The notes below the pieces were generated by a model, which saw only the letters and a list, made by a program, of their open reading frames with translations, searched no databases and was not told the DNA's origin. From positions 7,032-46,643 of the forward strand of contig PMCH01000363.1 of assembly GCA_003154055.1 (NCBI GenBank): a stretch of 39,612 nt of DNA, written 5' to 3'. Position numbers and translations under genes: made by a program. Shown here piece after piece: positions 17,099 through 39,612 of this stretch; position 1 is the stretch's first letter, and the number at the start of each line of letters is the position of its first letter. Source of the DNA: Acidobacteriaceae bacterium (lineage in GTDB: Bacteria > Acidobacteriota > Terriglobia > Terriglobales > Acidobacteriaceae).

Positions 17099-17106
17099 AG
17101 AAAACA

Positions 17107-18619: not shown

Positions 18620-18626
18620 GGGGAAC

Positions 18627-20670: not shown

Positions 20671-20745
20671 GGCGCTATCGTCTAGGGGTTAGGACGGAAG
20701 ATTCTCAATCTTCAAACCCGGGTTCGATTCCCGGTAGCGCTACCA
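20671..20745 (+). tRNA. tRNA-Glu (anticodon CUC)
   Basis: Manual cloverleaf. Acceptor GGCGCTA/TAGCGCT (first pair G-U). D arm TC GTCT AGGGGTT AGGA C, as in E. coli tRNA-Glu. Anticodon stem GAAGA/TCTTC with loop TT-CTC-AA. T arm CCGGG TTCGATT CCCGG. Encoded discriminator A plus CCA. Confidence 0.9.
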
Positions 20746-20855
20746 AATCTTCCACTTAGCTAGAATACTCAATGTTTATATGGTATTTCTGAATTTCTGG
20801 CGACATTCTTTTAGGTCTCGCCTGTTCCCGGATGTCGCTCTGGTTCTTTCTGTTC

Positions 20856-20876
20856 ATGGACAGTAAATGGACAGTA
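20856..20876. repeat. Tandem 10-bp direct repeat just downstream of the tRNA
   Basis: ATGGACAGTA a ATGGACAGTA, 111 nt past the tRNA 3' end, in a ~450-bp stretch without a convincing gene. Confidence 0.8.
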
Positions 20877-21195
20877 TGGAGGGGTGGGGGATGGCAAATC
20901 CCCAAGAAAGGCTGGCCGCTATTGTGGGCTGGCCCCTCTGTTGAAACCACGGTCAGCTCCACCACACCACCCAGCGGTTCACGGACGCGATTCAATTCGA
21001 GAGTATCTGAAGGCGCCGCTCGGCCATGGCGTGTCCGACCTCGCTTTTGACGGCATCTTGGGTCTCGGAAAAAAAGAACTCATGGCACGGTGCGTCGCGT
21101 AATCAGGAGCCGGTCCTGGCACATCAGGAGGCCCGCTCCTGCTGGTTCGCCCGGCACCAACATCCGGAACGGCAGCCGGAGAAAAGGAGGCGGCC

Positions 21196-21396
21196 ATGCT
21201 CTGCGCAGAACTTGAGCGGATGGAAGCACAGTTCGATGACATTCTTACCGCTCTGGAGAATCCGGACCTGACGGAGCAGGAACGACGGTCTCTGCAGGAC
21301 GCTTATGCCCGGCTGAGCCGTACCATCCTGGATCATCAGAGGTCAGGTCACGAAGGACGTCCAACTCTCCCCTTCGGACCCACCCTTCATCAGTAA
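21196..21396 (+). CDS. Hypothetical small protein (66 aa)
   Basis: ATG at 21196 preceded by AAAAGGAGG with 6-nt spacing. Predicted helical N-terminal part (AELERMEAQFDDILTALENPDLTEQERRSLQDAYARL). No family recognised. Confidence 0.4.
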   Translation: MLCAELERMEAQFDDILTALENPDLTEQERRSLQDAYARLSRTILDHQRSGHEGRPTLPFGPTLHQ

Positions 21397-21426
21397 TGGG
21401 CTCAACCATAGTAAGGGGCACAACCA

Positions 21427-22128
21427 TCAAACATGCTGGTTCGTGGGCTGAGCGGACACGACCGGCACTGTCAGGAAAAACTCTTTTACCAGTCTGTTTC
21501 GTAGTTCTGTCGAAACCCGGCTCAAAAGGCCTGTGAGCGGGGGACCTCCATCCTGTGCCAAGGCAGCTGACTGCGAACACGTCTCGCGAAGCAGCACAAT
21601 GCTGTTTCGCATCCAGGGTGCCACCATCGCTCCTTGCATAAGGTTCTTCTGGTCAGTAGCGTAGCAATGTGACTTGATCACCGCGATCCAACCTTCACAA
21701 AACGGGTCAGTTGTAACCAGCTCCGGATTTTCCAGTGCTGCTCGGTTCACCGCAGTCAGGGCACCCTCGACGGGCGAAGGCAAGTCCACCGAAATACCGG
21801 CGACGGTAATGGTCATCAGCTTCTGCCCCTGTCGGACCCAACGATACAGTCCAACGACGTCGATGTGCTCGATCTTGCCAAACAGGTTGACAGCAAATCT
21901 GTCCACCCCAACCCGGATCAGTTGCCATCCCTCGTCTACTGCCCAGGTGTGGCAGGGATGGAAGCAATACCCTGTGGGGACATCCGTTCCGAACTTGGTC
22001 TCGATGCGAGGTCGAAGCCGAGGCAGAGTCTCTACCGGACCTGCTGTGGAGGGCTGCGCCCGGCGCTTGAGCAGGCGGCCGAGTGTCATCACTAGCGCAA
22101 ACATCAGTAATACAAGCAGCACTGACAT
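21427..22128 (-). CDS. Membrane-anchored glycine-cleavage-H-like (GcvH fold) protein lacking the lipoyl-lysine
   Basis: N-terminal TM helix (MSVLLVLLMFALVMTLGRLL). GcvH-like core (HTWAVDEGWQLIRVGVDRFAVNLFGKIEHIDV...SPVEGALTAVNRAALENPELVTTDPFCEGWIAVIK). By my alignment to E. coli GcvH, the ESVKA lipoylation position reads TVAGI. SD GGGGAGGG upstream of the ATG at 22128. Confidence 0.65.
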   Translation of the reverse strand: MSVLLVLLMFALVMTLGRLLKRRAQPSTAGPVETLPRLRPRIETKFGTDVPTGYCFHPCHTWAVDEGWQLIRVGVDRFAVNLFGKIEHIDVVGLYRWVRQGQKLMTITVAGISVDLPSPVEGALTAVNRAALENPELVTTDPFCEGWIAVIKSHCYATDQKNLMQGAMVAPWMRNSIVLLRETCSQSAALAQDGGPPLTGLLSRVSTELRNRLVKEFFLTVPVVSAQPTNQHV

Positions 22129-22223
22129 ATACCCTCCCCGTGATCGTGCGATCTGGAGGCGTTCCGGGTTCGCCGGGCCTTGCGTCGTCCCGGAGCGTTC
22201 ACTCCTCGAGGCTTGTACCCCTC

Positions 22224-23330
22224 CTAGGGTCCAAGAAACAGCGGCAACCGCTTCGCCATCAAGCTAAATGCGGCAACACCCAAGGCAACGATGCTGTATG
22301 CAACGAGGAACTCGTTCCAGTCGGGCAGGTATTTCGAGTTCATAGCGGCTTCCACGGAAGTGATGCACGTGTTCAGCCGGTTGGTGATGAGTCCAGCCAG
22401 AACCATCCCGGAGCAGAGGTAAACCATTCTCGGACTCTGCAGGTTCCTCTCGTTGATCAGGATAACTATGGGTAACAGGATCAGGCCCATTTCAAGTCCC
22501 AGAAGCATGTTTTCAGGATTGTTTTTCCAGACCAACAGCGGAATGCCGCGATAGACCAAGTCGGCGATGCGCACGCCCAGATAGAGAAACAACAGAGCTG
22601 CCAGCACTTTGCCCAGGCCTGCTACCCTCTCAGGCGACAACCCCTTATCCGAGGCGACGTTCATGTGCCAGGAAGCGAAGATGATGACCGCCAGGCCCGC
22701 ACAAACCGCAGAGACAAAGAAGAGAAACGGTAACTGTGGAGTCGACCAGAGCGGAGAAACCCTTTCGGGCACAGATTGCAGGAGATCGGCCAGACTGGTT
22801 TGGTACAGCACTGAGAAAACTACTGCCACAAACAATAAAGGCATGTTCAAGAAACGCACCCAGTGCGGCGGCGTGCGGCCACCGAAACGCTTCCACAGAT
22901 CAGGAGCAAATTCCAGGATCAGGACTGCACCAAAAAGAATGAAAGCCCATGCGATTCCACAGAGAATCGAGTTCGATTTCCGCGCGCCCATCTGCAACGC
23001 TATTCGTCCCGGCGACGAAACTAGCCCCAGAACAGCCACGAGGTAGCCCAAGAAACTCAATACCAGACTGGCTCGGACGATAGGCCGGTAGCCTTCGAGA
23101 TTTAACACATAAATGGTGGCTGCTATCGTGAAACCTCCCGCTGCAATTGCGATCCCGCAAAGCACATTCAGACCGGTGATCAGGCCCCAGGGGAACACAT
23201 TGCCAAGGGAGCCGGAGTGATCTATTCCGTGCACGAGACGTACGTAGGAGGCGCAAATCCCCCCTGTCATTAGAAGCGCGAAGCACCAGACCCAGAAACT
23301 CCATCGAGGAAAGTGAAGTGTTCGTTTCAT
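22224..23330 (-). CDS. HybB-like (NrfD/PsrC family) integral membrane subunit
   Basis: The ATG at 23330 (MKRTLHFPRW...) is preceded by GGAGGAGGG. Blocks collinear with E. coli HybB as remembered: FPWGL..., GYRPIVRASLVLSFLGY, LEFAP, SPLWSTPQLPFLF, YLPDWNEFLVAYSIVA...RLPLF. About 10 TM helices. Confidence 0.8.
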   Translation of the reverse strand: MKRTLHFPRWSFWVWCFALLMTGGICASYVRLVHGIDHSGSLGNVFPWGLITGLNVLCGIAIAAGGFTIAATIYVLNLEGYRPIVRASLVLSFLGYLVAVLGLVSSPGRIALQMGARKSNSILCGIAWAFILFGAVLILEFAPDLWKRFGGRTPPHWVRFLNMPLLFVAVVFSVLYQTSLADLLQSVPERVSPLWSTPQLPFLFFVSAVCAGLAVIIFASWHMNVASDKGLSPERVAGLGKVLAALLFLYLGVRIADLVYRGIPLLVWKNNPENMLLGLEMGLILLPIVILINERNLQSPRMVYLCSGMVLAGLITNRLNTCITSVEAAMNSKYLPDWNEFLVAYSIVALGVAAFSLMAKRLPLFLGP

Positions 23331-23403
23331 AAACCCTCCTCCGGGCTGCCGGGCAGCAATTACGCACTGAGAGGCAACCGCCCTTCGAGAATTCCAAAGT
23401 TGT

Positions 23404-23964
23404 TTATGCCGCGATCTCTTTCTTGTTTGGCGCGATGTCGCCAACGCCCGCACTCATCCTGTCGCGTACCATCTTGATCAGGACCGGTATCGCGGCCACA
23501 ACTGCGGGGTGCATGTTTTCACCAACGGTGGAACAATCCCTCGCCTCCACCGCCAAGATGAGCACCTGTTCCGCTGCCGGGAGGCGAAGATGCCTCGCCA
23601 CGGCAAGAGCCTCGAACAGTCCGACGTAGTGTGGGGAGCTTCCCGGAAGTGAATTCAGATCGGTGTCACGAAATTCGTAGATTGTTCCCGGCGGAGCGGA
23701 GCCCGTCACCACGGTATCTACTACGATGAGACGAGTTGCGTTGAGTGCGTAGTCGAGCAGGTGAAGGCCTGTCTCTGGAGTGCTAACGACTTCCACGTTT
23801 GCCGGCGCAAATTGCCGGACGTGCGCCGCAACCATGCTGCCCAGCGAATCATCGCCCAGCAAATCGTTTCCCAGGCACAGGACTCGGATGTCGCATTTCT
23901 GCGCAGCAGATCCCGACGGATCCACCTCGGAACTCGAGGTACTACTCACGATGCACACTCCCAT
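23404..23964 (-). CDS. [NiFe] hydrogenase maturation endopeptidase (HyaD/HybD/FrhD family)
   Basis: IRVLCLGNDLLGDDSLG...LIVVDTV...SSPHYVGLFEAL are typical motifs. The start is uncertain: ATG at 23964 or GTG at 23949, both overlapping the large-subunit 3' end. Confidence 0.8.
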   Translation of the reverse strand: MGVCIVSSTSSSEVDPSGSAAQKCDIRVLCLGNDLLGDDSLGSMVAAHVRQFAPANVEVVSTPETGLHLLDYALNATRLIVVDTVVTGSAPPGTIYEFRDTDLNSLPGSSPHYVGLFEALAVARHLRLPAAEQVLILAVEARDCSTVGENMHPAVVAAIPVLIKMVRDRMSAGVGDIAPNKKEIAA

Positions 23965-25501
23965 CGAAGTCGCGACGCAATAAAGCCAGCGTCTTTCCGC
24001 TTTGGTTACGTACTCGAACCAGTAGCGGCATGCTCCCCGGGAGCGAGTGGGTGGCGCACCCGTGACACGGGTCATAAGCTCGGAACGCCATCTCCACTCG
24101 GTTGAGGACACTCTCAGGAACGTCCGCGCCGGAGATCAGTCCTTTGGCAGCTTTTTCCACGCTCATCGCCATGCGGGCAGAGTTGTTTTGTGTGGCAACG
24201 ATCAAGTTGGCCTTTTGGATCAGTCCATTTTCGTCCGTCTGGTAGTGGTGGACGAGTGTTCCGCGCGGCGCTTCCACCACCCCGATCCCTTCCCGGGGCT
24301 TCTCTGTCGGCAGAACGCGTATAGCCGGGTCTGTCAGTTGCGGGTCAACAGCCAGTTCCTTCATGCGTTCCGTGGCGTAGAGCAATTCCACCAAACGCGC
24401 CCAGTGGTTTGCGAGCGTGTAATGCACCGGCTTGCCTCCCAGAGTCGAGAAGAACTTCTGATAGGCCTCGTGGGCGAGCGGCGTGGTCATACCGTCGCTG
24501 ACATTTAGGCGCGCCAAAGGTGCCACGCTGTAAATGCCGCTGTCGATGCCCTCCCGGAAGCCATTCCACCCGACTTGCTTGAGGTAACAGAACTTCACAT
24601 AACTCCAGGGCTCGACGTGTTCCGCGATGTGTTCCAGGTATTGCTCGGGTGGGAACCTCTTCCATTCCTTTCCGTCGGGCGTGACGACGCGGATCGGACC
24701 GTCGTAGAAATTGACCCGATTACAGTCGTCCACCATGCCCATGTAGTAGGTACGGTGCGTATAAACATCGGCGAGGATCAGGCTCACATAATCCGTGTTC
24801 TTGAGAACTACATCTTCGAACAGCTGGAGCGTGAACTTCGCAAATTCGACGCCCTCCGCGGCTACCTCCTGAAATTGTCTCTGCATGTCGGGAGTCACGC
24901 GCTTCGCCACGCCACCGGGCAAGCCGAAGACCGGATGTACAGCTTTCCCGGCAACGAGTGCGATCAGTTCGCGCCAGCGCCGACGCATCGCGATCACTTT
25001 TTTGCCGGTTTCGACTCCAACTTTTCCGATCACGCCGAGCACGTTTCGTTCGGTAGGAGGCGCGTCCGGGCCCACGACGAAGTCCGGCCCACCCAGAAAG
25101 TAAAAGTGAAGAGCATGATCCTCGGCCATGAAGGTGTTGTAGACGAGTTCCCGGATTTTCTTTGCAGCCGGCGGCGGATCCACGCGATACAGGCTGTCGA
25201 GAGCCTTGGTCGCCGCCATGTGGTGCGCGGTGGGACAGACGCCGCAAATACGCGAAGTGATCTGCGGCATCTCCTCAGCGGGACGGCCTTGCACGAACTT
25301 TTCGAAACCGCGCAGCTCGGGCACCTGGAAATAGGCTCGTTCGACCTGTCCGGCTTCGTCCAGGAAAATGTCAATCTTGCCGTGTCCCTCCAGACGAGTG
25401 ATCGGATCAATCGTGATGCGCCGGCGCGTATAGCCGGCGTTGGCTTTTGCAGCACCTTCTTGCCACGTATGGTGCAGGATTTGTTCCTTCTCTTCGGGCA
25501 T
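23942..25501 (-). CDS. mvhA: [NiFe] hydrogenase large subunit (group 3c / MvhA-like by context)
   Basis: N-terminal Ni-binding motif RICGVCPTAHH. C-terminal DPCHGCATH followed by a 34-aa extension that would be removed by the adjacent endopeptidase. The ATG at 25501 is preceded by GAGGTG (the tracked start at 25507 is a GTG). Confidence 0.9.
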   Translation of the reverse strand: MPEEKEQILHHTWQEGAAKANAGYTRRRITIDPITRLEGHGKIDIFLDEAGQVERAYFQVPELRGFEKFVQGRPAEEMPQITSRICGVCPTAHHMAATKALDSLYRVDPPPAAKKIRELVYNTFMAEDHALHFYFLGGPDFVVGPDAPPTERNVLGVIGKVGVETGKKVIAMRRRWRELIALVAGKAVHPVFGLPGGVAKRVTPDMQRQFQEVAAEGVEFAKFTLQLFEDVVLKNTDYVSLILADVYTHRTYYMGMVDDCNRVNFYDGPIRVVTPDGKEWKRFPPEQYLEHIAEHVEPWSYVKFCYLKQVGWNGFREGIDSGIYSVAPLARLNVSDGMTTPLAHEAYQKFFSTLGGKPVHYTLANHWARLVELLYATERMKELAVDPQLTDPAIRVLPTEKPREGIGVVEAPRGTLVHHYQTDENGLIQKANLIVATQNNSARMAMSVEKAAKGLISGADVPESVLNRVEMAFRAYDPCHGCATHSLPGSMPLLVRVRNQSGKTLALLRRDFDGSVHRE

Positions 25502-25508
25502 AGCCACC

Positions 25509-26498
25509 TCACATGGAAGCTTGCACCTCGTTCGATCTTTTTCGCCGTAAGAACGATCCTGGCAAGCCGTAGCGATAGAAGGTTCCCACCGGATCCGGAA
25601 TCGTATTCAGGACCCGATCAATTTCAGCATCTTCCTTGCTCTCCACCAGGGACGCGAGGCAGGAAAGGATTTTTGCACCCTGGTCGCGGACGCGGCTGGT
25701 GGGACCGCAGCAACCCGTACACGGCATATTGCCCCGGATGCACGCGGCCTCGCAGCCAGAGCGCGTCGCTGGACCCATGCAAACCAACCCTTGGGCCAGC
25801 AGGCAAGTCTGCTCATCGATGATCAGATCCTGGGTCCGTTTAAATTCTGCGATGGATAACGTTTCTGGCTTCGTGTCCTTGCGTGGGCATTCGTCACACA
25901 ACGCACAATCGGGAGCAAACACCGTGCCCTTGGCTGGGAGATCGCCGCCCAGTAGAGTCTGCAGTGCGGTGCGGAGTATCCGTGGCGGCGGCGGACAGCC
26001 GGGGACGTAGTAATCAACGTCCACGATCTGGTCGAGCGTCCTCACAGTGTTATGAAATCCAGGCAGCACCACGGTGTGCCCGTCATCGTGGTGAGACGTC
26101 ACCGGAAGAACACTCTCGGGATTCACCGTGCTGGGTGATTCGAGATAAACCGTCCGCAAGATGCTTTCCCGGTCGAACAGATTGGCCAGACCGGGAATTC
26201 CGCCCAAGTGCGAACACGATCCGAACGCCACCAGCAATTCGGACTTGCTTCTCAACAGCCGTGCCATCTCCTCTTGTTCTGTCGTCCGAACGGCGCCGTT
26301 CAAGAAGGTTGCCGTGATCGAGCCATCCGGCATCGCCTCGACATCCTTTCGTTTGAAGTCGAGAGCTACGGGCCAGAAGACAATCTCCACGGCAGCAATG
26401 ACGTCCAGAAGGCCTTCGGCTAGATCGACGACGGTCTCGTCGCAGCCGCCGCAAGACGAGCACCAGTAGAAGGCGATTCTTGGCTTCGTCGCTAGCAC
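25509..26498 (-). CDS. mvhG: [NiFe] hydrogenase small subunit, no Tat signal (MvhG-like)
   Basis: AFYWCSSCGGCDE proximal-cluster motif right at the N-terminus, with no twin-arginine leader. GSCSHLGGIP. C-terminal Cys clusters (CALCDEC, CMGPATRSGCEAACIRGNMPCTGCCGP). GTG start at 26498 preceded by GAGGAGG. Confidence 0.85.
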   Translation of the reverse strand: MLATKPRIAFYWCSSCGGCDETVVDLAEGLLDVIAAVEIVFWPVALDFKRKDVEAMPDGSITATFLNGAVRTTEQEEMARLLRSKSELLVAFGSCSHLGGIPGLANLFDRESILRTVYLESPSTVNPESVLPVTSHHDDGHTVVLPGFHNTVRTLDQIVDVDYYVPGCPPPPRILRTALQTLLGGDLPAKGTVFAPDCALCDECPRKDTKPETLSIAEFKRTQDLIIDEQTCLLAQGLVCMGPATRSGCEAACIRGNMPCTGCCGPTSRVRDQGAKILSCLASLVESKEDAEIDRVLNTIPDPVGTFYRYGLPGSFLRRKRSNEVQASM

Positions 26499-26974
26499 AC
26501 AGCCACCTCCTCGCGGATGTCCTCCGTCTCCGCGTCCAGCTGAAGGGGACCAAGCGCGCGGACTTTCTCGACCATGTCGTTGATGACGCTCCGCACCCGG
26601 TCACCCTCGGCCGCGGAAATCCATTCCAGGCGGAAACGCTCTTCCTCGATTCCCATCTGCCGCAGTACGCACTTGAGCAGGTGATAGCGCCGAAGAGTCT
26701 TGTAATTGCCTTCCTGGTAGTGGCAGTCGCCGGGATGGCAGCCGCCAATCAGCACGCCATCTGCTCCTTGCGCAAAGGCATCCAGCACAAACTGCGGATC
26801 CACCCGACCGGAGCACATCAGGCGGATCACACGCACATTGGGGGCGTACTTCATGCGCGAAGTACCGGCCAGGTCCGCGGCAAGATACGTACACCAGTTG
26901 CAGAAGAACGCCACGATTCGAGGCTCAAATGCTGCTTGCAACAACGGGGCGCGACTGAGTTGGCGATTACGCAT
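26492..26974 (-). CDS. mvhD: MvhD-like hydrogenase delta subunit ([2Fe-2S] linker to HdrA)
   Basis: IVAFFCNWCTYLAADLAG...VIRLMCSGRVDPQFVLDAFAQGADGVLIGGCHPGDCHYQEGN is the MvhD/FlpD signature. The ATG at 26974 overlaps the hdrA stop by 8 nt; the tracked ORF start at 27226 lies inside hdrA. Confidence 0.85.
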   Translation of the reverse strand: MRNRQLSRAPLLQAAFEPRIVAFFCNWCTYLAADLAGTSRMKYAPNVRVIRLMCSGRVDPQFVLDAFAQGADGVLIGGCHPGDCHYQEGNYKTLRRYHLLKCVLRQMGIEEERFRLEWISAAEGDRVRSVINDMVEKVRALGPLQLDAETEDIREEVAVC

Positions 26975-28985: not shown

Positions 28986-29853
28986 ACGCGATCTCCTTCG
29001 CTTCAAGCACCGGTTCGACTGGGACCAGACTCCGCTGTAGCCCGATCGTCGCCGCGGATGCGCCCAGCGCTAGCGCCATCAGTTGCGTGAAGTAGAGGAC
29101 CGGAATCGACAAGGGATGGCGAATGCTCCCAGCCTCCTTCTGAAAGCACTCCAGGTTGAACTGGCAAAGTGGACAAACGGTCGCGATGACATCCGCGCCG
29201 TTCATTTGCGCCTCCGCGATCAAGTAGCGGATGAGATGCAGCCCGATCTCGGGCAGCGTGCCCTTCTGGCTTCCCCCACAACAGCGGGTCTTAAGAGGGT
29301 AGGGGGCAACGGTCGCTCCGCAGGCCGCCAGGAGCTGGTCCATGGAGGTTGGGTTACGCTGGTCGTCGAACGTGGCGTAGGGCCTGACAATCTGACAACC
29401 ATAGTAGGGTGCGACCTTCAACCCCTTGAGAGGTCTCACTACCTTGGCAGCAATGGCTTCTAGCCCGATGTCGTTCAGGAAGACATCCAGCGGGTGGCGC
29501 ACCCGGACGCGATCGTGGTACTCAAGGCCGATCGCGCCCAGCGCTCGACTGACCACGGTTTTGATATCGGGATAGTCTCGGATGTAGCGCTGGGTCTTGT
29601 TGAGAACCAGGTAACAGGCAGCACAGGGAGCGATGATATCCATGCGCTCGCGTTCCGCCAGAGCCAGGTTCCGCGCTGCCAGTGCATAGGACGTCAGCTC
29701 ATCGACAGACAGATAGGTAGTGGCGCCACAGCAGTTCCAGTCGTCTAGTTCCTGAACCTCGATCGCCAAGGACCGGAACACCGCGAGCAATGACTCTTCG
29801 TAGGCCCGTCCCGTTCCCCGAAGCGAGCAACCGGGATAGTAGGCGTATTTCAT
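28978..29853 (-). CDS. hdrB: Heterodisulfide reductase subunit B-like (two CCG domains)
   Basis: MKYAYYPGCSL..., WNCCGAT and TRCCGGS CCG motifs, and CPLCQFNLE. The ATG at 29853 is preceded by GGAAGGAG and forms an ATGA overlap with the hdrC stop. Confidence 0.85.
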   Translation of the reverse strand: MKYAYYPGCSLRGTGRAYEESLLAVFRSLAIEVQELDDWNCCGATTYLSVDELTSYALAARNLALAERERMDIIAPCAACYLVLNKTQRYIRDYPDIKTVVSRALGAIGLEYHDRVRVRHPLDVFLNDIGLEAIAAKVVRPLKGLKVAPYYGCQIVRPYATFDDQRNPTSMDQLLAACGATVAPYPLKTRCCGGSQKGTLPEIGLHLIRYLIAEAQMNGADVIATVCPLCQFNLECFQKEAGSIRHPLSIPVLYFTQLMALALGASAATIGLQRSLVPVEPVLEAKEIAYA

Positions 29854-30440: not shown

Positions 30441-30527
30441 TGCGCACCTCGGTGCGGAGGCGGACTGTTTTCGGGGCGCCACCGCACTCAGCTCTCTGCT
30501 GCCCGGCCGCGTCCTGCTGTGTTCCTT

Positions 30528-33035: not shown

Positions 33036-33067
33036 TCGTTGGCACGATGTCACGAATCGATTGACTT

Positions 33068-34360
33068 TTAGACGCAATACCAGTCTTCCCGCGTCAGCGG
33101 CAAACCGCTCCTCCCGTTCGATAGCTTGGCGAGCAGCGTCTGGTACACATTCAGACGACCACTCCGCAATCGGTGCACGGCGCCAGCCATGTAGAGACGC
33201 CATATCCGGTAGGTTGTATCATCCGTGATCCTTCGCGCCTCTTCTGAATGTGCCTCCAGTCGCTGCACCCACTGGTGAAGTGTCAAGGCATAGTGCTCGC
33301 GTAGGCTTTCCACATCTCTGACCTCAAAGCCACTCAGTTCCGCGGCCCGAATGGTAGCGTTGATCGGCACCAACTCGCTATCGGGAAAGACGTAGCGGTC
33401 GCTAAAGGACTGGTCCCGACGGTGGTAAGTGGCGGAATAGGAAATGCCGTGATTCAGGAATACCCCGCCCGACCGCAATAGTTCGTACGCTCGATTGAAG
33501 TATTCCGGCAGGGATGCTTCGCCCACGTGTTCAAACATCCCCACGCTGACAATCTTGTCATACAACTGACCATGCTCAATGTCACGGTAATCTGAAACCT
33601 CCACGCGGCAGCGGTCAGTCAGGCCTGCTTCGTGCAGGCGTTGCCGGGCTAATTCCGCCTGCGGCACACTCAGAGTGATTCCTACCGCTTCCACGCCATA
33701 GTGAGCGGCGGCGTGCATGATTAATCCGCCCCAGCCGCAACCAATGTCCAAGAGACGTTCGCCACGGCGGAGCCGCAGTTTTCTGCAGATGTAATCCAGC
33801 TTGCGCTCCTGGGCCGAATCCAGATCTTCTTCCGGCGTGGAAAAGTACGCGCAGGAGTACACCATCCGCCGATCTAGCCAGAGCGCGTAGAACTCGGCCG
33901 GAAGGTCGTAGTGATAAGTGACGGCTTGCCGATCACGATCTCGAGAATGAACGGAGCCGCTGAAATTAGCTGGTCGCCGGTTCTTATGAGCACCGCTGTT
34001 CTCCGGCAACTTCTGCAATCGTTCAGCAAGATCAAGACTCTTCCCCAGGCTGCCTTCCTGCTCAAGCAGATAATCTGCGAACTCGAAGGCTGCTTCAATG
34101 TCACCCTCGATGTCGAAGTCGTTGTAGATGTAAGCTTCTCCCAGTGTGAGTTCACTGGGCCGAGAACACATCGTACGCAGAGCTCCCGGATGCTTGAGGA
34201 CCAACGTGAAATGCGGTCGCTGTACCGCTCCCCAAGTTGTGCCATCACACAACCGAACCTGAAAATCTCGCTTGGGATAGTCTGCCAGTAGAGCGTCCAG
34301 GAACTCGGCGTCGGCCAGGGAAGATGTCTTTCCGAACAGAGACTTCGCCAATGCTGCCAT
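33068..34360 (-). CDS. Cyclopropane-fatty-acyl-phospholipid synthase family SAM-dependent methyltransferase
   Basis: MVYSCAYF...LDSAQERKLDYICRKLRL..GERLLDIGCGWGG...FDKIVSVGMFEHVG-like (YDKIVSVGMFEHVG) motifs. ATG at 34360 preceded by GGAGGT. Confidence 0.85.
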   Translation of the reverse strand: MAALAKSLFGKTSSLADAEFLDALLADYPKRDFQVRLCDGTTWGAVQRPHFTLVLKHPGALRTMCSRPSELTLGEAYIYNDFDIEGDIEAAFEFADYLLEQEGSLGKSLDLAERLQKLPENSGAHKNRRPANFSGSVHSRDRDRQAVTYHYDLPAEFYALWLDRRMVYSCAYFSTPEEDLDSAQERKLDYICRKLRLRRGERLLDIGCGWGGLIMHAAAHYGVEAVGITLSVPQAELARQRLHEAGLTDRCRVEVSDYRDIEHGQLYDKIVSVGMFEHVGEASLPEYFNRAYELLRSGGVFLNHGISYSATYHRRDQSFSDRYVFPDSELVPINATIRAAELSGFEVRDVESLREHYALTLHQWVQRLEAHSEEARRITDDTTYRIWRLYMAGAVHRLRSGRLNVYQTLLAKLSNGRSGLPLTREDWYCV

Positions 34361-34470
34361 GCGCACCTCCAGGCACTTATGCGGTTCGCGCCTTCGCCGA
34401 CAATCCAGCGTACCTTGCTTCCAGCAATCCAAAACGTACGCGGACCGTTCGGGCACGTCCATTTTCCAAT

Positions 34471-34635
34471 CTATTGCAGCGTGCTGGCCACGCTCGAGAA
34501 TGCATTGTTGGCGTTTCCGCCGATCAGCCTTACGGTGCCAACCACGAGCACCAGGATCACTGCCAGCATTACTGCGTATTCAGCGATGTCTTGCCCTTCT
34601 TCCGCGGTCCAGAACCAGCGTTCAGAATTAGTCAT
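34471..34635 (-). CDS. flp: Flp/Fap-family type IVb pilin (orphan)
   Basis: EEGQDIAEYAVMLAVILVLVVGTV matches the Flp G/xxxEY processing and hydrophobic motif. 54 aa from the ATG at 34635 (60 aa from the tracked start). Confidence 0.7.
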   Translation of the reverse strand: MTNSERWFWTAEEGQDIAEYAVMLAVILVLVVGTVRLIGGNANNAFSSVASTLQ

Positions 34636-34915
34636 ACGTTCTCCCAGCGACAAGTTGGTTGCGCCCCTAAGTTACTGTCGTAGAGTCCGTCGCCACTGAA
34701 GTACTCCGGCACTGAGGACTCGTTTCGTATTGGTCCACGCTCTTCCGCAGAGTTGCAGATCAACTGTCGAGAAGAGCGTTCGAAAAGGACCCACCGCGCG
34801 AAAGCATTTAGGATGACCTCCACTCATCGAGGTACTTTGAACCTCTCACTCAAGCCGCGGTTCCGATCTTCTTGGCAGCTTTGGGAAGCTCAAATTTCAA
34901 TACTCCTGCCTGCAA

Positions 34916-35368
34916 TTAGACGACTGCGAGATCCGGCGTCACGTCCGTTGCGAGGTCGATCAGCTGCAGGATCTGATCGGGATACCAATCGATGTGCTCG
35001 AGTTTGCCTCCCTCAGTTTCGGTTGTATTCACCTGCTTCCTACCTAGAATCGTGATGCGTCGCGGCTCAAGGCCGACTCTAAGCTCATTCTCTTCAAAGC
35101 CGAAGACGTTAGCTCGAACACTGATCCGATCGTCTGATTCCAGCATGGAAACGGGGACTGGGCGCAGCAGCTCTGATTCTGCCCGGAACCAGTCTTCCCA
35201 GTCGTGACCGTGTTCACTGCCACGCGCCTCAAACAGCTCGTAGGCGCGGCGCACGATCGCAAGCTGTACCTCTTGCATCTCCCAGTGGAGATCCTCGATG
35301 TTGCGCAAATTTAACGATGTGCTGGCTGGGCCAGATTGCTGTGGTTGGAACGCCCTTGTGGACTTCAT
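34916..35368 (-). CDS. DUF2934-like N-terminus fused to an Hsp20/alpha-crystallin-like domain
   Basis: VRRAYELFEARGSEHGHDWEDWFRAE (DUF2934-like), followed by a beta-rich segment (ISVRANVFGFEENELRVGLEPRRITILGRK...). ATG at 35368 preceded by GAAGGAGGA. Confidence 0.55.
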   Translation of the reverse strand: MKSTRAFQPQQSGPASTSLNLRNIEDLHWEMQEVQLAIVRRAYELFEARGSEHGHDWEDWFRAESELLRPVPVSMLESDDRISVRANVFGFEENELRVGLEPRRITILGRKQVNTTETEGGKLEHIDWYPDQILQLIDLATDVTPDLAVV

Positions 35369-35493
35369 AACATCCTCCTTCGGATGTCGCAGAAGGAGCA
35401 ACGCTCGGCCTTTAGTCGCTGGCACAGGCCAGGGCACCCTATGAGAGACGGGGCGCGCTCAAACCGGCCCCAAACAAACTTTTCTCACCGTTC

Positions 35494-35631
35494 CTACTTC
35501 GCCGAGACTGTAAGAATCAACACAGCGAAGACTACCAAGACGAAACTTACGACAAGAGAAAGTAGGTTGTGGAACGGATGTGCGTGGAAGAAGCTATCGC
35601 CGGACCTCCTAAAATGCATTAGGAGGTTCAT
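35494..35631 (-). CDS. Candidate unannotated 45-aa hydrophobic peptide
   Basis: Hand translation: MNLLMHFRRSGDSFFHAHPFHNLLSLVVSFVLVVFAVLILTVSAK, stop TAG at 35494-35496. GGAGG lies 6 nt upstream of the ATG at 35631. Below the 60-aa cutoff of the ORF track. Confidence 0.35.
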   Translation of the reverse strand: MNLLMHFRRSGDSFFHAHPFHNLLSLVVSFVLVVFAVLILTVSAK

Positions 35632-35838
35632 GATCAACCTCCTGCGACGATCAGGCAGCAGACTCGTTTTCAATCTCTGGCCTGCAGTTCCCTACCTTTT
35701 ATTAAACACTTTTCGATCCGATGTTGCAGTGATCTCGGCGATTTTGTTCCTCGCACCCGCGTCAGGTGTTTGTAGTGTCACATCTGATCCTTGATGGTAC
35801 GGCTCACCCGCCTAACGCCTTTCCCAGAGTTCTCCGGC

Positions 35839-36330
35839 CTACCAAGTGAGCCCGCCCGAGGGAGGCGGCCATTTCCCGAGCAGTTGTCTCAATATGACGA
35901 CCTGTCCGCTGTGGTAGCTGGTGTGGGAGGCGATGCTATGAAACACTCGCAAACGGCTCGTTTTGCCAATCTTTCCGAGGAGATCTCCCTCACGAGATCT
36001 ACTCTTCAGCTGGTCGAGGCCCACGCGAAAATCCCGAACCGCACGTTTCCATTCTTGGGGGCTTGCCGGGCCTAGATCGCTTGGCCAACTGCCCGCCGCA
36101 TGTTTGGGAACAGCAGGGTCTTGGCCGTTGAGCCACCGCAACACCCAGTTCTGCCAGTAGCTGGTGTGCGCCAGCAGCTGGAAAATGGAATGCAGAGCTC
36201 CGGGCGGTCGCATAGCAGCGGTTTTCCAGTCCAGCCCGTCGAAAACACATTGCGTCCCTGCATGCGCACCCTGTCCTGATAAAGCGTGCCCGACGATTTG
36301 GCTGAGGACTTTATCATTGTTGCCCTTCAT
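35839..36330 (-). CDS. DinB-family (DinB_2/YfiT-like) four-helix-bundle protein
   Basis: HSIFQLLAHTSYWQNW... and ...HSIASHTSYHSGQVVILRQL carry the His-containing DinB motifs. ATG at 36330 preceded by AGGAGG. Confidence 0.7.
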   Translation of the reverse strand: MKGNNDKVLSQIVGHALSGQGAHAGTQCVFDGLDWKTAAMRPPGALHSIFQLLAHTSYWQNWVLRWLNGQDPAVPKHAAGSWPSDLGPASPQEWKRAVRDFRVGLDQLKSRSREGDLLGKIGKTSRLRVFHSIASHTSYHSGQVVILRQLLGKWPPPSGGLTW

Positions 36331-36549
36331 GGCCCGCCTCCTTTTGGCATTTCGGTCAACAAGACCCGTGCACCCGGATTGGGTCTTATATTCTTTCAGG
36401 AAGACAAAATCAGTAATGGCAGCCGCAAACTGTGAAAGAGTTGCGAAATTTGCCCGTACTGGCTGCGATCTCCCGCAGTCCCGAAATGGAACCCAGTGTC
36501 ACTGACTTTTCGGTTGTGGGCGGAGGAACATGGTCGGCGGGAGGTTACT

Positions 36550-36942
36550 ATGTTTCAACGATTTGCCGCTGGTACTGCCATCGCTTCGATTCCCATTGCT
36601 ATCGCTGCCCTCATCTTGGGCTTCACACCGAGTCTGACGTTCGAGAAGATCTATCCCCTCACCATTTTCTGGTGTTGCGCACCGCTGGCGTGGGGAGTCT
36701 GGGCGCTGCTGACACCCTCGGCATGGATGCCGAAACGACTGCCGCTTTGGGGAGCACTTCTAGGACTCTTCGCGGGATCGATGGCGGCTTTCGTGCTGAA
36801 CCTGCCTTCTCGGTTTCTAGGAGGACCAACGCCGATCCTGGTGCGCGTGGTGGCGGTTCTGGTCATGACGTTGTTCTATTACATGATGTGGATGCTGGTG
36901 CGCGGAGCTTGCCGATGGCTGACAGGCGCAACCTCCGCATGA
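36550..36942 (+). CDS. Small integral membrane protein (4 predicted TM helices)
   Basis: ATG at 36550 preceded by GGGAGGT. Hydrophobic segments AIASIPIAIAALILGF, LTIFWCCAPLAWGVWALL, LWGALLGLFAGSMAAFVL and VRVVAVLVMTLFYYMMWML. Confidence 0.55.
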   Translation: MFQRFAAGTAIASIPIAIAALILGFTPSLTFEKIYPLTIFWCCAPLAWGVWALLTPSAWMPKRLPLWGALLGLFAGSMAAFVLNLPSRFLGGPTPILVRVVAVLVMTLFYYMMWMLVRGACRWLTGATSA

Positions 36943-37088
36943 CGTCTCTGCCACTGTGCGGTGAATCACAGACAAGGAGGACGTGTGATCGCTAGCCTAG
37001 GACTGTAAACACCGTGCCCGAGCTCGGGCCGACCGCAGGCCTGATCGGTGTTGTGGCGACCGCCGGGCCACACAAGAGGAGGTGTCTC

Positions 37089-38219
37089 ATGCCTCTCGAT
37101 CCTCTGGAATCCCGTCCTTCCCTCCAAAAACTCCTTGCAGGACTCATGCTGATTCTCGTTCCCGTGACGGTTTTTGGCTTCTATGTTGCGTTGCAGGGGG
37201 ATAGCTATGTTCGCCACGTGAGTGGAGACCATTTCCGTACCCTCACTCGAATATCAGCAGAGACCACCTCCCGCTTCGTGGGAGAGTTCGTGAAAGATGT
37301 GGGCGCGATCGCAAACAGCCCCAGCGTTGTGCAGGCCGTCACTTCCGCGAATCGGCCTTACGAACACCTCAGCGAAGAAGCGGTTCGCAGCAAAGTGGAC
37401 GCGATCGAAAATAAATGGAATACGTCGGAGGCCGATGCCCTGTCTCGGGGTATTCTGACCTCCGATCTGACGCGCGAATTGCGCCGGGCGCGCGAGTTGA
37501 ATGCAAAACTGCTGAAGATCACCGTGGTTGACATCAGCGGGGCAACCGTCGCCGCAACCGACAAACCGTTGCATTACTTCCAGACCGACCGCGAGTACTG
37601 GCGTTTGCTCTACTCACAGGAACAGGGCGCCATCCACGTATCGGACGTGCGCTACGACGAGCAGAACCGCCTGTACTATGTCAGCGTCGCCTATCCGATT
37701 CTGCAGGAAGGCACGGGGCGGTTCATTGGTGCGGTCACGGCGCTGGTAGACCTGTCGCCACTGTTCGCACAATTGAATGGGCATCAGATCGGGCGCACGG
37801 GACGTCTGTTCCTAGTGCGCGACGACGGGGTGGTGATCCAGGCTCCGAGCGTGACTCCCGGCATGAAAATCAAATCCGAGGAATTTGCCGCGATCCGGGA
37901 CGCGCTGGGAACGCTACGAGGTCGGGAAGTGGGATATATCTACGCTACCCTACCCAAGGGCGAATTGTACTTGATCGGTTTCGCCGATACCGGGCTGCGA
38001 GAGGCCTATCCCAATCTGCCCTGGATTGTGCTGGCAAGCCAGGAGGATCGGGAGGTGGTTGGCCCCGTTCGAGGAATGGCTGGTTTCGCGTTGTTGATGT
38101 TGATCCTGGCGCTGTTGATGATGACGCTGCTCGGTGCGTACGTGTTCCTGCATCGCAAGCAGAAACTGGAGGACATCGAGACACCACCGGAAGACAACCA
38201 GCGCCCGGCAGCGCCGTAA
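37089..38219 (+). CDS. Membrane protein with a periplasmic Cache-like sensor domain between two TM helices and no cytoplasmic output domain
   Basis: ATG at 37089 preceded by AGAGGAGG. TM1 is LLAGLMLILVPVTVFGFYVAL. The ~300-aa extracytoplasmic region has Cache-like hallmarks (ITVVDISGATVAATDK...YFQTDREYW...IHVSDVRYDEQNRLYYVSVAYPI...GAVTALVDL). TM2 is FALLMLILALLMMTLLGAYVFL, followed by only ~25 aa. Confidence 0.6.
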   Translation: MPLDPLESRPSLQKLLAGLMLILVPVTVFGFYVALQGDSYVRHVSGDHFRTLTRISAETTSRFVGEFVKDVGAIANSPSVVQAVTSANRPYEHLSEEAVRSKVDAIENKWNTSEADALSRGILTSDLTRELRRARELNAKLLKITVVDISGATVAATDKPLHYFQTDREYWRLLYSQEQGAIHVSDVRYDEQNRLYYVSVAYPILQEGTGRFIGAVTALVDLSPLFAQLNGHQIGRTGRLFLVRDDGVVIQAPSVTPGMKIKSEEFAAIRDALGTLRGREVGYIYATLPKGELYLIGFADTGLREAYPNLPWIVLASQEDREVVGPVRGMAGFALLMLILALLMMTLLGAYVFLHRKQKLEDIETPPEDNQRPAAP

Positions 38220-38305
38220 GGCGGCCCAGCGCGGGTAGTCGGGTGTCGTGCGATGGTGAGGGAAGAAAGGCAGAGTGGGGTCTGTTGCTTAGGGAGAGGA
38301 TTCCT

Positions 38306-38887
38306 ATGCTGGTCGCGTCTGAATTAAAAGCAGGGATGGTCATCCGAATGGAGGGCCAGATTTACAGAGTTCTCGAAGTGGAGAGCCGGGCGGGAGCGGC
38401 GAAACTGGGCGGTGTTGTCAAGGCCAAGCTGAGTAACGTGCGGAGCGGCCGGATATGGGAGCCGCACCTCCGCCCGCAGGAACGAGTGGAAGAGCTGCAG
38501 GTGGAGCGGCAACTGATGGAATTCCTGTTTCGTCAGGGGAGCACCTGTACATTTATGAACCCCAACACCTGCGAACAGATTGAGGTATCAAGCGAGATTC
38601 TGGGGCCGGCCGAGCAATTTCTTCAGGCCGGGATGCAAATGCCGGTGGAGTTCTTCGAAGGCGTCCCCATCAGCGCCGTTCTGCCGGACATCATGGAGGC
38701 TCGGGTTGCGGACACGGCGCCGGCCGCGCGTTCGCAACAAGACAGCGCCTGGAAAGAAGCCAGACTCGACAATGGTCTCGTGATCCGCGTTCCGCTCTTC
38801 ATTGCTCCCGGGGAAAGTGTCCGGGTTGATCTGCGCACTGGCCAGTACGTGGAACGGGCGCACCCGGATCGAAAACGGATCGCATAA
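38306..38887 (+). CDS. Elongation factor P-like protein (EfpL/YeiP-like paralog)
   Basis: ELKAGMVIRMEGQIYRVLEVES...VVKAKLSNVRSG...VIRVPLFIAPGESVRVDLRTGQYVERA is collinear with EF-P. The loop reads SRAGAAKLGG instead of the canonical KPGKGQA. ATG at 38306 preceded by GGGAGAGGA. Confidence 0.8.
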   Translation: MLVASELKAGMVIRMEGQIYRVLEVESRAGAAKLGGVVKAKLSNVRSGRIWEPHLRPQERVEELQVERQLMEFLFRQGSTCTFMNPNTCEQIEVSSEILGPAEQFLQAGMQMPVEFFEGVPISAVLPDIMEARVADTAPAARSQQDSAWKEARLDNGLVIRVPLFIAPGESVRVDLRTGQYVERAHPDRKRIA

Positions 38888-38923
38888 CACCTTGCTCCGT
38901 CGAGCGCGGGGCGGAGGAGAGCT

Positions 38924-39409
38924 ATGCTCGAAATGACGGCTATTCGCATGGAGTTTCCGGCCGATGCCAACATCATCGTCGGCCAGTCGCACTTTATCAA
39001 AACGGTGGAAGACCTCTATGAAGCGGTCGCGACCACGGTGCCGCAGGCCAAGTTCGGTCTGGCGTTCAATGAAAGCTCCGGGGCATGCCTGACGCGGTCG
39101 GAAGGAAATGACCAGGCGCTGCGGGAGACTGCCGTACGCAATGCCCAGGCAATCGGTTCGGGTCACACGTTTGTGGTCGTGATCCAGGACGCCTACCCCA
39201 TCAATGTACTGAACGCAATCCGAAATGTTCCCGAGGTTTGCACGATTTTTTGTGCGACCGCCAACCCGGTCGAGATCGTCGTGGCCCGGAGTGAGCAAGG
39301 TCAGGGGGTGCTAGGGGTGATCGACGGCAGTTCTCCGAAGGGCGTGGAGGGGCCCACCGACGTTGCTTGGCGTCACGACCTACTGCGCAAGATCGGCTAC
39401 AAACGATAA
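38924..39409 (+). CDS. PF04008-like protein ('adenosine-specific kinase' family)
   Basis: GQSHFIKTVEDLYEA...FGLAFNESSG...GHTFVVVIQDAYPINVLNAIRNVPEVCTIFCATANP...GVLGVIDG matches my recollection of this ~160-aa archaeal/bacterial family. ATG at 38924 preceded by GGAGGAGA. Confidence 0.6.
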   Translation: MLEMTAIRMEFPADANIIVGQSHFIKTVEDLYEAVATTVPQAKFGLAFNESSGACLTRSEGNDQALRETAVRNAQAIGSGHTFVVVIQDAYPINVLNAIRNVPEVCTIFCATANPVEIVVARSEQGQGVLGVIDGSSPKGVEGPTDVAWRHDLLRKIGYKR

Positions 39410-39561
39410 GGCCGCACACCCGTTGCAACCTGATCCTGAAGCATGGCGCAAGCCTCGCTGACTTTCGGTCATTGCCTCGAGCGGCCGCTAAAAGAATCGC
39501 CTCGTATTCCTGAGACGCGAGAGTCTATATGGTCTGTCCGTTCTTTTCTGTCTATGTAGGT

Positions 39562-39612
39562 CGGAAGATTCTCAATCTTCAAACCCGGGTTCGATTCCCG
39601 GTAGCGCTACCA
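39562..39612 (+). repeat. Perfect 51-bp direct repeat of the 3' part of tRNA-Glu (att-like)
   Basis: CGGAAGATTCTCAATCTTCAAACCCGGGTTCGATTCCCGGTAGCGCTACCA is identical to 20695-20745. The upstream 24 nt cannot form the acceptor or D arm, so this is not a second tRNA gene. Confidence 0.9.

What the first reader, a model, noticed from the sequence alone, without database searches (positions are those of the whole stretch)
20671..39612. An 18.9-kb segment bracketed by tRNA-Glu and a perfect 51-bp copy of its 3' end: island-like structure without an integrase
The full tRNA-Glu(CUC) at 20671-20745 and the 51-bp perfect duplicate of its 3' portion at 39562-39612 have the geometry produced by site-specific integration into the 3' end of a tRNA gene (attL/attR). 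The bracketed DNA carries the hydrogenase/Hdr operon plus stress and adaptation genes (OsmC, a CFA synthase-like enzyme, Hsp20-like, DinB, an EF-P paralog). No tyrosine or serine recombinase is detectable. The ~450 bp next to the tRNA (20746-21195) has only short junk ORFs and a tandem ATGGACAGTA repeat (20856-20876) that could be a relic arm-type site. This looks like a fixed or fossil genomic island that delivered an H2-metabolism module. The window ends exactly at the repeat, so what follows cannot be seen.
Basis: seen in the sequence. Interest (0 to 1): 0.68.

Follow-up and report, generated by a model that had tools for sequence, protein, structure and literature searches.

The report
Integrase-less island-like segment at tRNA-Glu hotspot
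An 18.9-kb stretch carrying a hydrogenase operon in an uncultured peat acidobacterium is bracketed by a tRNA-Glu gene and a copy of that gene's 3' end, the scars of site-specific integration, but it has no recombinase and its genes look native, so it is a decayed island at an integration hotspot, not a newly imported H2 module.

Summary
tRNA-Glu(CUC) lies at 20671-20745. A 56-nt copy of its 3' part (51 nt perfect) lies at 39557-39612. Between them are about 20 genes and no recombinase. Nine independent metagenome contigs read through the copy into a common flank, so it is not an end artefact.

The site is a proven integration hotspot in Terriglobia (Acidobacteriota). A near-identical conspecific contig (99.95%) carries a 5.4-kb integrase/Z1/AbiE element with its own 47-nt repeat, between the same two flanks, in place of the 18.9 kb. 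About 20 of 122 copies of this tRNA 3' end in soil metagenomes are partial, att-type copies.

The ~135 nt after the tRNA, ending in the tandem GGACAGTAA repeat, recurs after tRNA-Glu in at least 17 other genomes, each time followed by different cargo.

The cargo, however, is native-like. The Hdr-Mvh operon and the DinB/EfpL/AdoK neighbourhood sit in ordinary chromosomal contexts in sister species. Their divergence (84-90%) matches that of the flank (90%), and composition barely shifts.

Best reading: a non-autonomous, CIME-like att-bracketed unit that is strain-variable. It is not fixed and not shown to have delivered H2 metabolism. Interest is modest.

The parts
20671..20745 (+). Intact tRNA-Glu(CUC) with encoded CCA. 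Its 3' 51-56 nt (20690/20695-20745) form the attL-side copy of the repeat.
   Evidence: ARAGORN; Rfam tRNA 63.6 bits; repeat D2.
20746..20895 (+). Conserved post-tRNA block ('class 2'), read as a P'-arm-like sequence. It contains the invariant TTCT...GTCT motif (about 20806-20818). Similarity to other genomes stops 10-30 nt after the tandem repeat.
   Evidence: Aligned with 15 other loci from metagenomes and GTDB Terriglobia MAGs. No Rfam family matches.
20856..20877 (+). Tandem ATGGACAGTAA / ATGGACAGTAT with an 11-nt period, 112 nt from the CCA. GGACAGTAA.TGGACAGTA is invariant in all 16 aligned loci. Candidate arm-type protein-binding sites.
   Evidence: The same layout (core, about 100 nt, tandem repeat) occurs in a phage attP next to an integrase, L170.
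20896..21426 (.). Junction DNA specific to this species. It holds only a 66-aa ORF (21196-21396, +) with no family match. Homology to sister-species chromosomes begins at 21366-21417.
21427..30440 (-). Nine-gene operon: HdrC (29850-30440), HdrB (28978-29853), HdrA (26967-28985), MvhD (26492-26974), MvhG (25509-26498), MvhA (23942-25501), HycI (23404-23949), NrfD-like (22224-23330), GcvH-like (21427-22128).
   Evidence: Pfam; gene calls on conspecific contigs; 84-87% nt identity to L163/L166 in other genomic contexts.
30528..38219 (.). Mixed cargo: OsmC (30528-30974, -), OmpR-TPR regulator (31179-33035, +), CFA synthase (33068-34360, -), DUF2934 (34916-35368, -), DinB_2 (35839-36330, -), unknown 130-aa ORF (36550-36942, +), dCache protein (37089-38219, +).
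   Evidence: Pfam; gene calls. DinB and the dCache gene have orthologues in sister chromosomes: L181/L182 (DinB) and L183/L184 (dCache).
38306..39409 (+). EfpL/YeiP-type EF-P paralogue (38306-38887) and PF04008 adenosine-specific kinase (38924-39409).
   Evidence: Pfam; translation. AdoK is 84-96% identical in thousands of Terriglobia proteins. The EfpL-AdoK pair is 90% nt identical to L181/L182, which have no att site.
39473..39556 (+). Right-junction DNA (P-arm-like, about 85 nt) not shared with sister chromosomes. It ends in GTCTATG-TAGG, a degenerate D-arm-like stretch that shares a 4-nt gap with the right end of island L159.
   Evidence: Homology to L181/L182 ends at 39472; right-end alignment.
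39557..39612 (+). attR-side partial copy of the tRNA-Glu 3' part: 56 nt with 1 mismatch, 51 nt perfect from 39562. In nine other contigs it is followed by AACCCTTTCCTCTCC..., then a 5'-truncated OMP gene.

Best explanation
The two repeats are attL and attR, left by tyrosine-integrase recombination between the 3' end of tRNA-Glu(CUC) and an element of one particular family, which I call 'class 2'. This family has three marks: a ~56-nt tRNA-identical core that starts at TAGGAC of the D stem; a ~135-nt P'-side block that ends in tandem GGACAGTAA repeats; and a short P-side stretch.

The element has lost, or never had, its own recombinase and any transfer genes. What remains is a non-autonomous unit flanked by att sites. 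This matches the published definition of a cis-mobilizable element (CIME): no integration or transfer genes, attL and attR retained.

The unit sits in a slot that several element families use in Terriglobia, and it is present or absent among near-clonal strains.

Its cargo (the Hdr-Mvh operon, stress genes, EfpL, AdoK) is DNA native to this lineage that became enclosed between the att sites. It is not a module imported from a distant donor.

Shown: the repeats; the conserved left block; the absence of a recombinase; the alternative occupant in a conspecific strain; the native-like cargo.

Inferred: that an integrase made the repeats; that the block is an att arm; that the unit can still be excised or moved by an integrase supplied in trans or by an element that integrates next to it.
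For: Geometry and sequence:
- Full tRNA plus a 56-nt direct copy, 51 nt perfect.
- Nine independent contigs read through attR into one common flank.

Alternative occupant:
- L016 is 99.93-99.96% identical upstream. It diverges exactly after the CCA.
- It carries 5,426 bp holding a Phage_integrase catalytic domain, Z1, AbiEii and AbiEi. This is followed by a perfect 47-nt repeat and then a flank 100% identical to the one after the window's attR.

Hotspot:
- Of 122 exact 47-nt cores in JGI metagenomes, about 20 are partial copies.
- Two integrase families lie next to them. Family A is found next to the tRNA; family B (384 aa) lies next to attR.
- Tandem arrays also occur.

Conserved block:
- It follows intact tRNA-Glu in L043, L052, L096, L143 and in 13 loci from 12 GTDB Terriglobia MAGs. 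Different cargo follows each time.

Other islands with class-2 or class-2-like ends and no integrase:
- L159: 2.9 kb, with a right end related to the window's.
- L160: 7.3 kb.
- L175/L176: 2.5 kb, with a degenerate ~56-nt copy.

Direct precedents:
- Decay: L173 has both ends of family B (terminator-class P' and the ATAGCTACGTAGCA P arm) but only a 1.4-kb TPR gene and no integrase.
- Architecture: IMG/VR contig L170 has an integrase, then the core, then a terminator and a tandem TGGTACACA repeat about 100-125 nt out.

CIME definition: PMC5704250, PMC6323972.
Against: - No class-2 element with an integrase was found, so the parent element is hypothetical.
- The GGACAGTA motif does not recur on the right-hand side above chance. 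No protein is known to bind it.
No mobility gene is present.
- AdoK looks like a near-universal Terriglobales gene. It is odd for such a gene to sit on a dispensable unit.
- Tetranucleotide composition inside differs only mildly from outside: r=0.93, against 0.96 between the two flanks and 0.80 for the L016 element.
- Neither an empty site nor a circular attP junction was found.
- The L016 state could have arisen by simple deletion between the 51-nt repeats.
Confidence: 0.55

Rival explanations
1. The segment is trapped chromosome, not a unit that ever moved. The att scars come from one or more small integrative elements at the hotspot. The 18.9 kb is ancestral chromosomal DNA that ended up between them through rearrangement, internal replacement or deletion. 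The minority variant is then a secondary deletion between the 51-nt repeats, followed by a new integration.
For: - Cargo orthologues sit in non-island contexts in sister species, at the same divergence as the flank.
- The AdoK-to-Hdr linkage also exists in L163 without att sites.
- AdoK is highly conserved across Terriglobia.
- Composition is near-native.
- Almost no element-specific DNA is left: about 620 nt on the left and about 85 nt on the right.
- The locus is rearranged relative to four sister species, which share a Pkinase/AP_endonuc_2/GMC anchor downstream of tRNA-Glu.
- The downstream OMP gene is truncated.
Against: - No simple series of events places native DNA precisely between a P' arm and a P arm in direct orientation.
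- Both ends resemble those of another class-2 island, L159.
- No IS elements or repeats mark the inner junctions.
- No alternative locus for these exact proteins appeared among 46 contigs read.
Confidence: 0.28
2. There were two native tRNA-Glu(CUC) genes 18.9 kb apart. The downstream one lost its 5' half. No integration was involved.
For: - Weak similarity continues upstream of the perfect 51 nt (GTCTA..TAGG).
- One MAG has two tRNA-Glu+block loci.
Against: - A pseudogene would decay evenly, not keep 51 perfect bases beside a scrambled 5' half.
- The 5' remnant shares a 4-nt gap with the right end of island L159, so the two have a common origin outside the local tRNA.
- Relatives have no tRNA after AdoK.
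- L016 has its own 47-nt copy in the same slot.
Confidence: 0.07
3. The terminal copy is an assembly artefact at a contig end.
For: The window stops at the very last base of the repeat.
Against: Nine contigs from different samples and assemblers contain the copy internally, with identical sequence on both sides. The window's end is better explained as an assembler stopping at a repeat that has two different continuations.
Confidence: 0.01

Closest known systems
Cis-mobilizable elements (CIMEs), e.g. the ICESt1/ICESt3-related CIMEs of Streptococcus thermophilus (definition in PMC5704250 and PMC6323972)
   Same: - attL and attR are retained.
- There are no integration or transfer genes.
- The unit sits at the 3' end of a conserved gene that related elements also use.
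- Tandem accretion occurs at the same site in relatives (L140, L133).
- The family-B remnant L173 shows decay of an integrase-bearing family directly.
   Different: - No intact parent element is known for this class.
- Neither cis-mobilisation nor excision has been shown.
- The cargo is lineage-native, partly core-like DNA, not typical accessory genes.
- The host is an uncultured acidobacterium.
tDNA integration hotspots that hold alternative genomic islands, e.g. the Klebsiella pneumoniae asparagine tDNAs (PMC4891358)
   Same: - Different islands occupy the same tRNA gene in different strains.
- Each is bounded by a direct repeat of the tRNA 3' end.
   Different: Those islands carry their own P4-like integrase next to the tDNA. 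This one carries none.
Vinyl-chloride respiration islands at ssrA in Dehalococcoides (PMC3146451)
   Same: A respiratory/energy-metabolism operon lies in a unit bounded by direct repeats of the 3' end of a small RNA gene, at a site used repeatedly.
   Different: Judged from the title and abstract only, those islands are horizontally acquired and mobilised site-specifically. Here there is no recombinase, and the operon appears to be vertically inherited.
Temperate-phage attP for the same tRNA-Glu (IMG/VR UViG_3300048796_000198, locus L170)
   Same: The layout matches: tRNA-identical core, then about 100 nt, then a tandem 11-12-nt-phased repeat.
   Different: - The repeat sequence differs (TGGTACACA).
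- A terminator follows the core.
- A 392-aa integrase lies directly upstream, and phage structural genes are present.

Membership tests
tRNA-integrated genomic island | Intact tRNA gene at one end and a direct repeat of its 3' part at the other | tested here: met
tRNA-integrated genomic island | Integrase gene inside the island, usually next to one att site | tested here: not met
   Pfam on about 20 ORFs; tblastn with three integrases; PHROGs.
tRNA-integrated genomic island | Present or absent among close relatives between conserved flanks | tested here: met
   L016 has another element between the same flanks at 99.95% flank identity. No empty site was found.
tRNA-integrated genomic island | Composition or phylogeny that indicates foreign origin | tested here: not met
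   - GC is 0.576 inside against 0.587 outside, and tetranucleotide r is 0.93.
- Cargo orthologues in sister species diverge as much as the flank does.
Cis-mobilizable element (CIME) | Has lost integration and transfer genes | tested here: met
Cis-mobilizable element (CIME) | Retains functional attL and attR | tested here: inconclusive
   - The core repeat is perfect over 51 nt, and the left block is conserved.
- The right arm is only about 85 nt and only weakly related to L159.
- The arm motif is not found on the right side.
- Function cannot be tested here.
Cis-mobilizable element (CIME) | Derived from, and mobilisable by, a related integrase-bearing element | tested here: inconclusive
   - No class-2 element with an integrase was found in 180 loci or in IMG/VR.
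- Other families at the same tRNA do have integrases.
Prophage / ICE / IME | Phage structural genes, or a relaxase/T4SS, plus an integrase | tested here: not met
HdrABC-MvhADG (group 3c [NiFe]-hydrogenase/heterodisulfide-reductase-type) module (the cargo) | MvhA, MvhG, MvhD, HdrA, HdrB and HdrC domains in one operon, with a maturation protease | tested here: met
   Pfam PF00374, PF01058, PF02662, FAD/4Fe-4S, CCG x2, Fer4 and HycI. The hydrogenase subgroup was not assigned by phylogeny.

The most novel reading that the evidence does not exclude
Terriglobia may harbour a family of integrase-less cassettes flanked by att sites. Its marks would be the conserved ~135-nt block with tandem GGACAGTAA repeats and a 56-nt tRNA-Glu duplication. 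Such cassettes would be moved in trans or in cis by integrases of unrelated elements that share the tRNA-Glu core. They could enclose and shuttle whole native operons (here a complete Hdr-Mvh hydrogenase; elsewhere defence genes, transporters and a group-4-like hydrogenase) between strains. That would be a route for reshuffling core metabolism in a slow-growing soil phylum.
Probability: 0.2. Interest if true: 0.55.

Novelty: new member of a known kind. Interest (0 to 1): 0.33.

Why it matters
The finding shows that in abundant but uncultured peat Acidobacteriota one tRNA-Glu gene is a busy integration slot. Strain-level gain and loss at this slot can involve an entire H2/heterodisulfide energy module together with well-conserved genes such as AdoK. 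If the unit is still mobilisable, it is a mechanism for strain-to-strain variation in hydrogen metabolism in peat. If it is not, it is a caution: att-like brackets around metabolic operons do not by themselves show horizontal import.

Tried and rejected
- **Empty-site search.** The exact pattern (intact tRNA D-arm through CCA, plus the AACCC flank) gave 0 hits in JGI metagenomes.
- **Circular attP junction.** None among the fetched loci.
- **Known RNA in the conserved block.** Rfam finds only the tRNA.
- **Integrase or excisionase remnants near either end.** Pfam at E<=1, PHROGs at E<=0.1 and tblastn at E<=10 found nothing.
- **GGACAGTA motif in IMG/VR.** 0 hits.
- **Arm motif on the right-hand sides of four islands.** Not above shuffled expectation.
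- **Is the truncated OMP downstream the same gene as the OMP next to the operon in L164?** No.
- **Is the operon in L166 bracketed by copies of its neighbouring tRNA-Val?** No.
- **Tn7-like insertion downstream of a tRNA.** Considered and rejected, because that mechanism does not duplicate 50 nt of the tRNA (my own knowledge).
- **Composition as a test of foreignness.** Too weak to decide. The first 6 kb of the window, outside the segment, is as atypical as the inside.
Full report
**1. Observation**

ARAGORN finds a single tRNA in the window, tRNA-Glu(CUC) at 20671-20745 on the + strand, with CCA encoded. Rfam's tRNA model scores it 63.6 bits.

The longest inter-genic direct repeat in the window pairs 20690-20745 with 39557-39612. 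It is 56 nt with one mismatch, so 51 nt are perfect from 39562. The second copy is not a tRNA by ARAGORN or Rfam.

Between the copies, Pfam identifies:
- a nine-gene operon: HdrC, HdrB, HdrA, MvhD, MvhG, MvhA, HycI, NrfD-like, GcvH-like;
- OsmC, an OmpR-TPR regulator, a CFA synthase, DUF2934, DinB_2 and a dCache protein;
- an EF-P paralogue with an EfpL-like loop, and a PF04008 adenosine kinase.

No recombinase, relaxase or phage protein is present. tblastn with three integrases that use this tRNA, and PHROGs on the small ORFs, find no remnant.

**2. The copy is not an end artefact**

The exact AdoK protein occurs on many metagenome contigs. Nine of them (L001-L009, from different samples and assemblers) contain the partial copy internally. 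They continue identically into AACCCTTTCCTCTCC..., about 280 nt of non-coding DNA and an OMP_b-brl_4 ORF.

That ORF covers only profile positions 460-817 of 838, so it is a 5'-truncated gene. Further on lie tRNA-Pro, an amidohydrolase and pyruvate dehydrogenase.

The window most likely stops at the last shared base because an assembler could not choose between the two continuations of the repeat. This is an inference.

**3. The slot is variable within the species**

Of 23 contigs that carry the upstream DUF2089 protein, 22 look like the window. One, L016, does not.
- L016 is 99.93-99.96% identical to the window over 10.7 kb upstream. That is the same level as the other conspecific contigs.
- It diverges exactly after the CCA.
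- It then carries 5,426 bp that encode a Phage_integrase catalytic domain (231 aa at most, apparently N-terminally truncated), a Z1 protein, AbiEii and AbiEi.
- It then has a perfect 47-nt repeat of the tRNA end.
- It ends with 94 nt that are 100% identical to the flank that follows the window's attR.

The contig ends exactly 141 nt (the assembler's k) after the shared sequence begins. I read this as a graph branch, meaning both variants are in that sample. This too is an inference.

So two near-clonal strains have different DNA between the same two flanks, each bounded by its own tRNA-end repeat.

**4. The tRNA is a general hotspot**

Of 122 matches, about 100 are intact tRNAs and about 20 are partial copies.

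About 30 loci keep the upstream dnaE2-imuB-imuA(-DUF2089) synteny at 70-80% nt identity. None has the window's cargo or its downstream genes after the tRNA.

Two integrase families are attached to this site:
- Family A is L016-like. The gene is on the minus strand right after the tRNA.
- Family B is 384 aa. The gene is on the plus strand just upstream of an attR whose P arm ends ...ATAGCTACGTAGCA.

Tandem arrays occur (L140, L133).

An IMG/VR contig (L170) shows a phage attP for this tRNA. It has a tape-measure-like gene, a 392-aa integrase and the core, followed by a terminator and a tandem TGGTACACA repeat about 100-125 nt out.

**5. The left end belongs to a recurrent family**

The ~135 nt after the window's tRNA, ending in ATGGACAGTAAATGGACAGTA, aligns with the DNA after intact tRNA-Glu in four metagenome loci (L043, L052, L096, L143). 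It also aligns with 13 loci from 12 GTDB Terriglobia/Terriglobales MAGs found with a tRNA-gap-motif pattern.

In a 16-sequence alignment the tandem repeat and a TTCT...GTCT motif are invariant. Similarity stops 10-30 nt after the repeat. What follows differs in every genome: a group-4-like hydrogenase, SelO, TIR and AbiE-like defence genes, a solo Cas1-like ORF, transporters. No integrase is seen.

Other post-tRNA sequence classes show the same design of tandem 11-12-nt-phased repeats 50-130 nt from the CCA:
- GGGGCACA x3 in 'class 3';
- TGTGGCC x2 in family A;
- TGGTACACA in the phage and family-B class.

This is why I read the block as a P'-type att arm. It is an inference: no binding protein is known, and the motif does not recur on the right-hand side above chance.

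**6. Other integrase-less bracketed units**

- L159: tRNA, block, 2.9 kb (two ORFs, one with a PD-(D/E)XK-like motif as read by eye, untested) and a partial copy.
- L160: tRNA, block, 7.3 kb (SulP and others) and a partial copy.
- L175/L176, a sister species: a divergent block (GGACACCAACTGGACACAA), a 2.5-kb FG-GAP gene and a degenerate ~56-nt copy.

The window, L159 and L175 all duplicate about 56 nt starting at TAGGAC, whereas families A and B duplicate 47 nt. The window's and L159's right ends also share a D-arm-like stretch with the same 4-nt gap.

L173 is a direct example of decay. It has both family-B ends but only a 1.4-kb TPR gene and a degenerate copy, with no integrase.

These structures match the published definition of a CIME: an element that has lost integration and transfer genes but kept attL and attR (PMC5704250, PMC6323972).

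**7. The cargo looks native**

- *Operon.* Window 21366-30440 is 86.7% identical to L163 and 84.1% to L166. In L163 it lies between AdoK-MarR and MTTB-OMP. In L166 it lies between tRNA-Val-MarR and RapZ-YicC-Gmk-RpoZ-CoaBC-PriA. Neither has tRNA-Glu, the block or bracketing repeats.
- *Right-hand genes.* DinB, part of the next ORF, and EfpL-AdoK are 85-90% identical to L181/L182. dCache-AdoK are 84% identical to a 5.2-Mb genome (L183). Again there is no tRNA or att copy. Homology to L181/L182 runs to 39472, which leaves only about 85 nt of junction-specific DNA.
- *AdoK.* It is 84-96% identical in thousands of Terriglobia proteins.
- *Flank.* The closest sister for the flank (L180) is 89.9% identical. 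Cargo and flank are therefore about equally diverged from sister species.
- *Composition.* GC is 0.576 inside, 0.587 outside and 0.537 for the L016 element. Tetranucleotide correlation is 0.93 for inside against outside, 0.96 between the two flanks, and 0.80 for the L016 element.

I therefore do not accept that the unit 'delivered' H2 metabolism from outside the lineage.

**8. The locus is rearranged relative to sister species**

Four sister species (DUF2089 86-89% identical) have 1.4-7 kb of variable DNA after tRNA-Glu. They then share a common Pkinase / AP_endonuc_2 / GMC-oxidoreductase anchor. The window's species lacks that anchor within 10 kb.

**9. Verdict**

Best reading (0.55): the segment is a non-autonomous, CIME-like unit bracketed by att sites from a 'class-2' tRNA-Glu element. 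It is strain-variable, and its interior is lineage-native DNA.

Main rival (0.28): the same scars, but the interior never moved as a unit.

The two-tRNA-gene reading (0.07) and the artefact reading (0.01) are poorly supported or refuted.

This is a new member of a known kind, of modest interest. The open puzzle is a widely conserved att-arm-like block for which no integrase has yet been found.

Noticed in passing
window 18000-18012 (imuB, 17183-18619, - strand): The window's imuB lacks 168 nt (56 codons, in frame) that are present in all conspecific contigs compared (L010-L014, L016). The gap lies between 13-nt direct repeats. It is either a strain-specific deletion or an assembly collapse.
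   Followed up: partly
L043 5430-6884 (- strand): A 484-aa ORF that by eye resembles Cas1 (no family search was run), with no CRISPR array in view. It sits in the variable DNA after tRNA-Glu plus block in a related metagenome contig.
   Followed up: no
L150 and L158 (MAG JAIQFO01, Terriglobia SRVP_8): One MAG has two loci with tRNA-Glu(CUC) plus the class-2 block. They are 86% identical over the tRNA and about 230 nt, but the upstream and downstream DNA is unrelated. One tRNA has D-arm changes. This could be a tRNA copy carried by an element, or a mixture introduced by binning.
   Followed up: partly
L003 2142-3712 (downstream of the window's end): The first gene after attR is only the C-terminal 45% of an OMP_b-brl_4 / TonB-dependent-receptor-like protein. 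The first ~45 nt after attR resemble the start of the 'class 3' post-tRNA block. This suggests an older, eroded insertion at the same tRNA.
   Followed up: partly
L040, L089, L060, L100, L149, L033, L129 and others (first ~140 nt after tRNA-Glu): A third conserved post-tRNA block ends in GGGGCACAGTAG...GGGGGCACAATTTGGGGCACAG. It is also followed by unrelated cargo with no integrase. L089 and L033 share a ~170-aa Cys-rich ORF right after it.
   Followed up: partly
L160 7834-8000: Directly after this island's attR-like copy, an ORF fragment begins that by eye resembles a serine recombinase/resolvase (no family search was run). This hints at a second, different element in tandem.
   Followed up: no
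window 13718-19621 (- strand): An imuA-imuB-dnaE2 mutagenesis cassette lies just upstream of DUF2089 and tRNA-Glu. The linkage is conserved in about 30 related loci. One sister (L179) lacks the cassette but keeps PhoU-DUF2089-tRNA-Glu.
   Followed up: partly
window 21427-23330 (- strand): The Hdr-Mvh operon ends with a membrane NrfD-like protein and a 233-aa GcvH-like protein with an N-terminal hydrophobic stretch. This nine-gene order is conserved at 84-87% identity in two sister lineages (L163-L165 and L166). The role of the lipoate-type carrier in the complex is unexplained.
   Followed up: no
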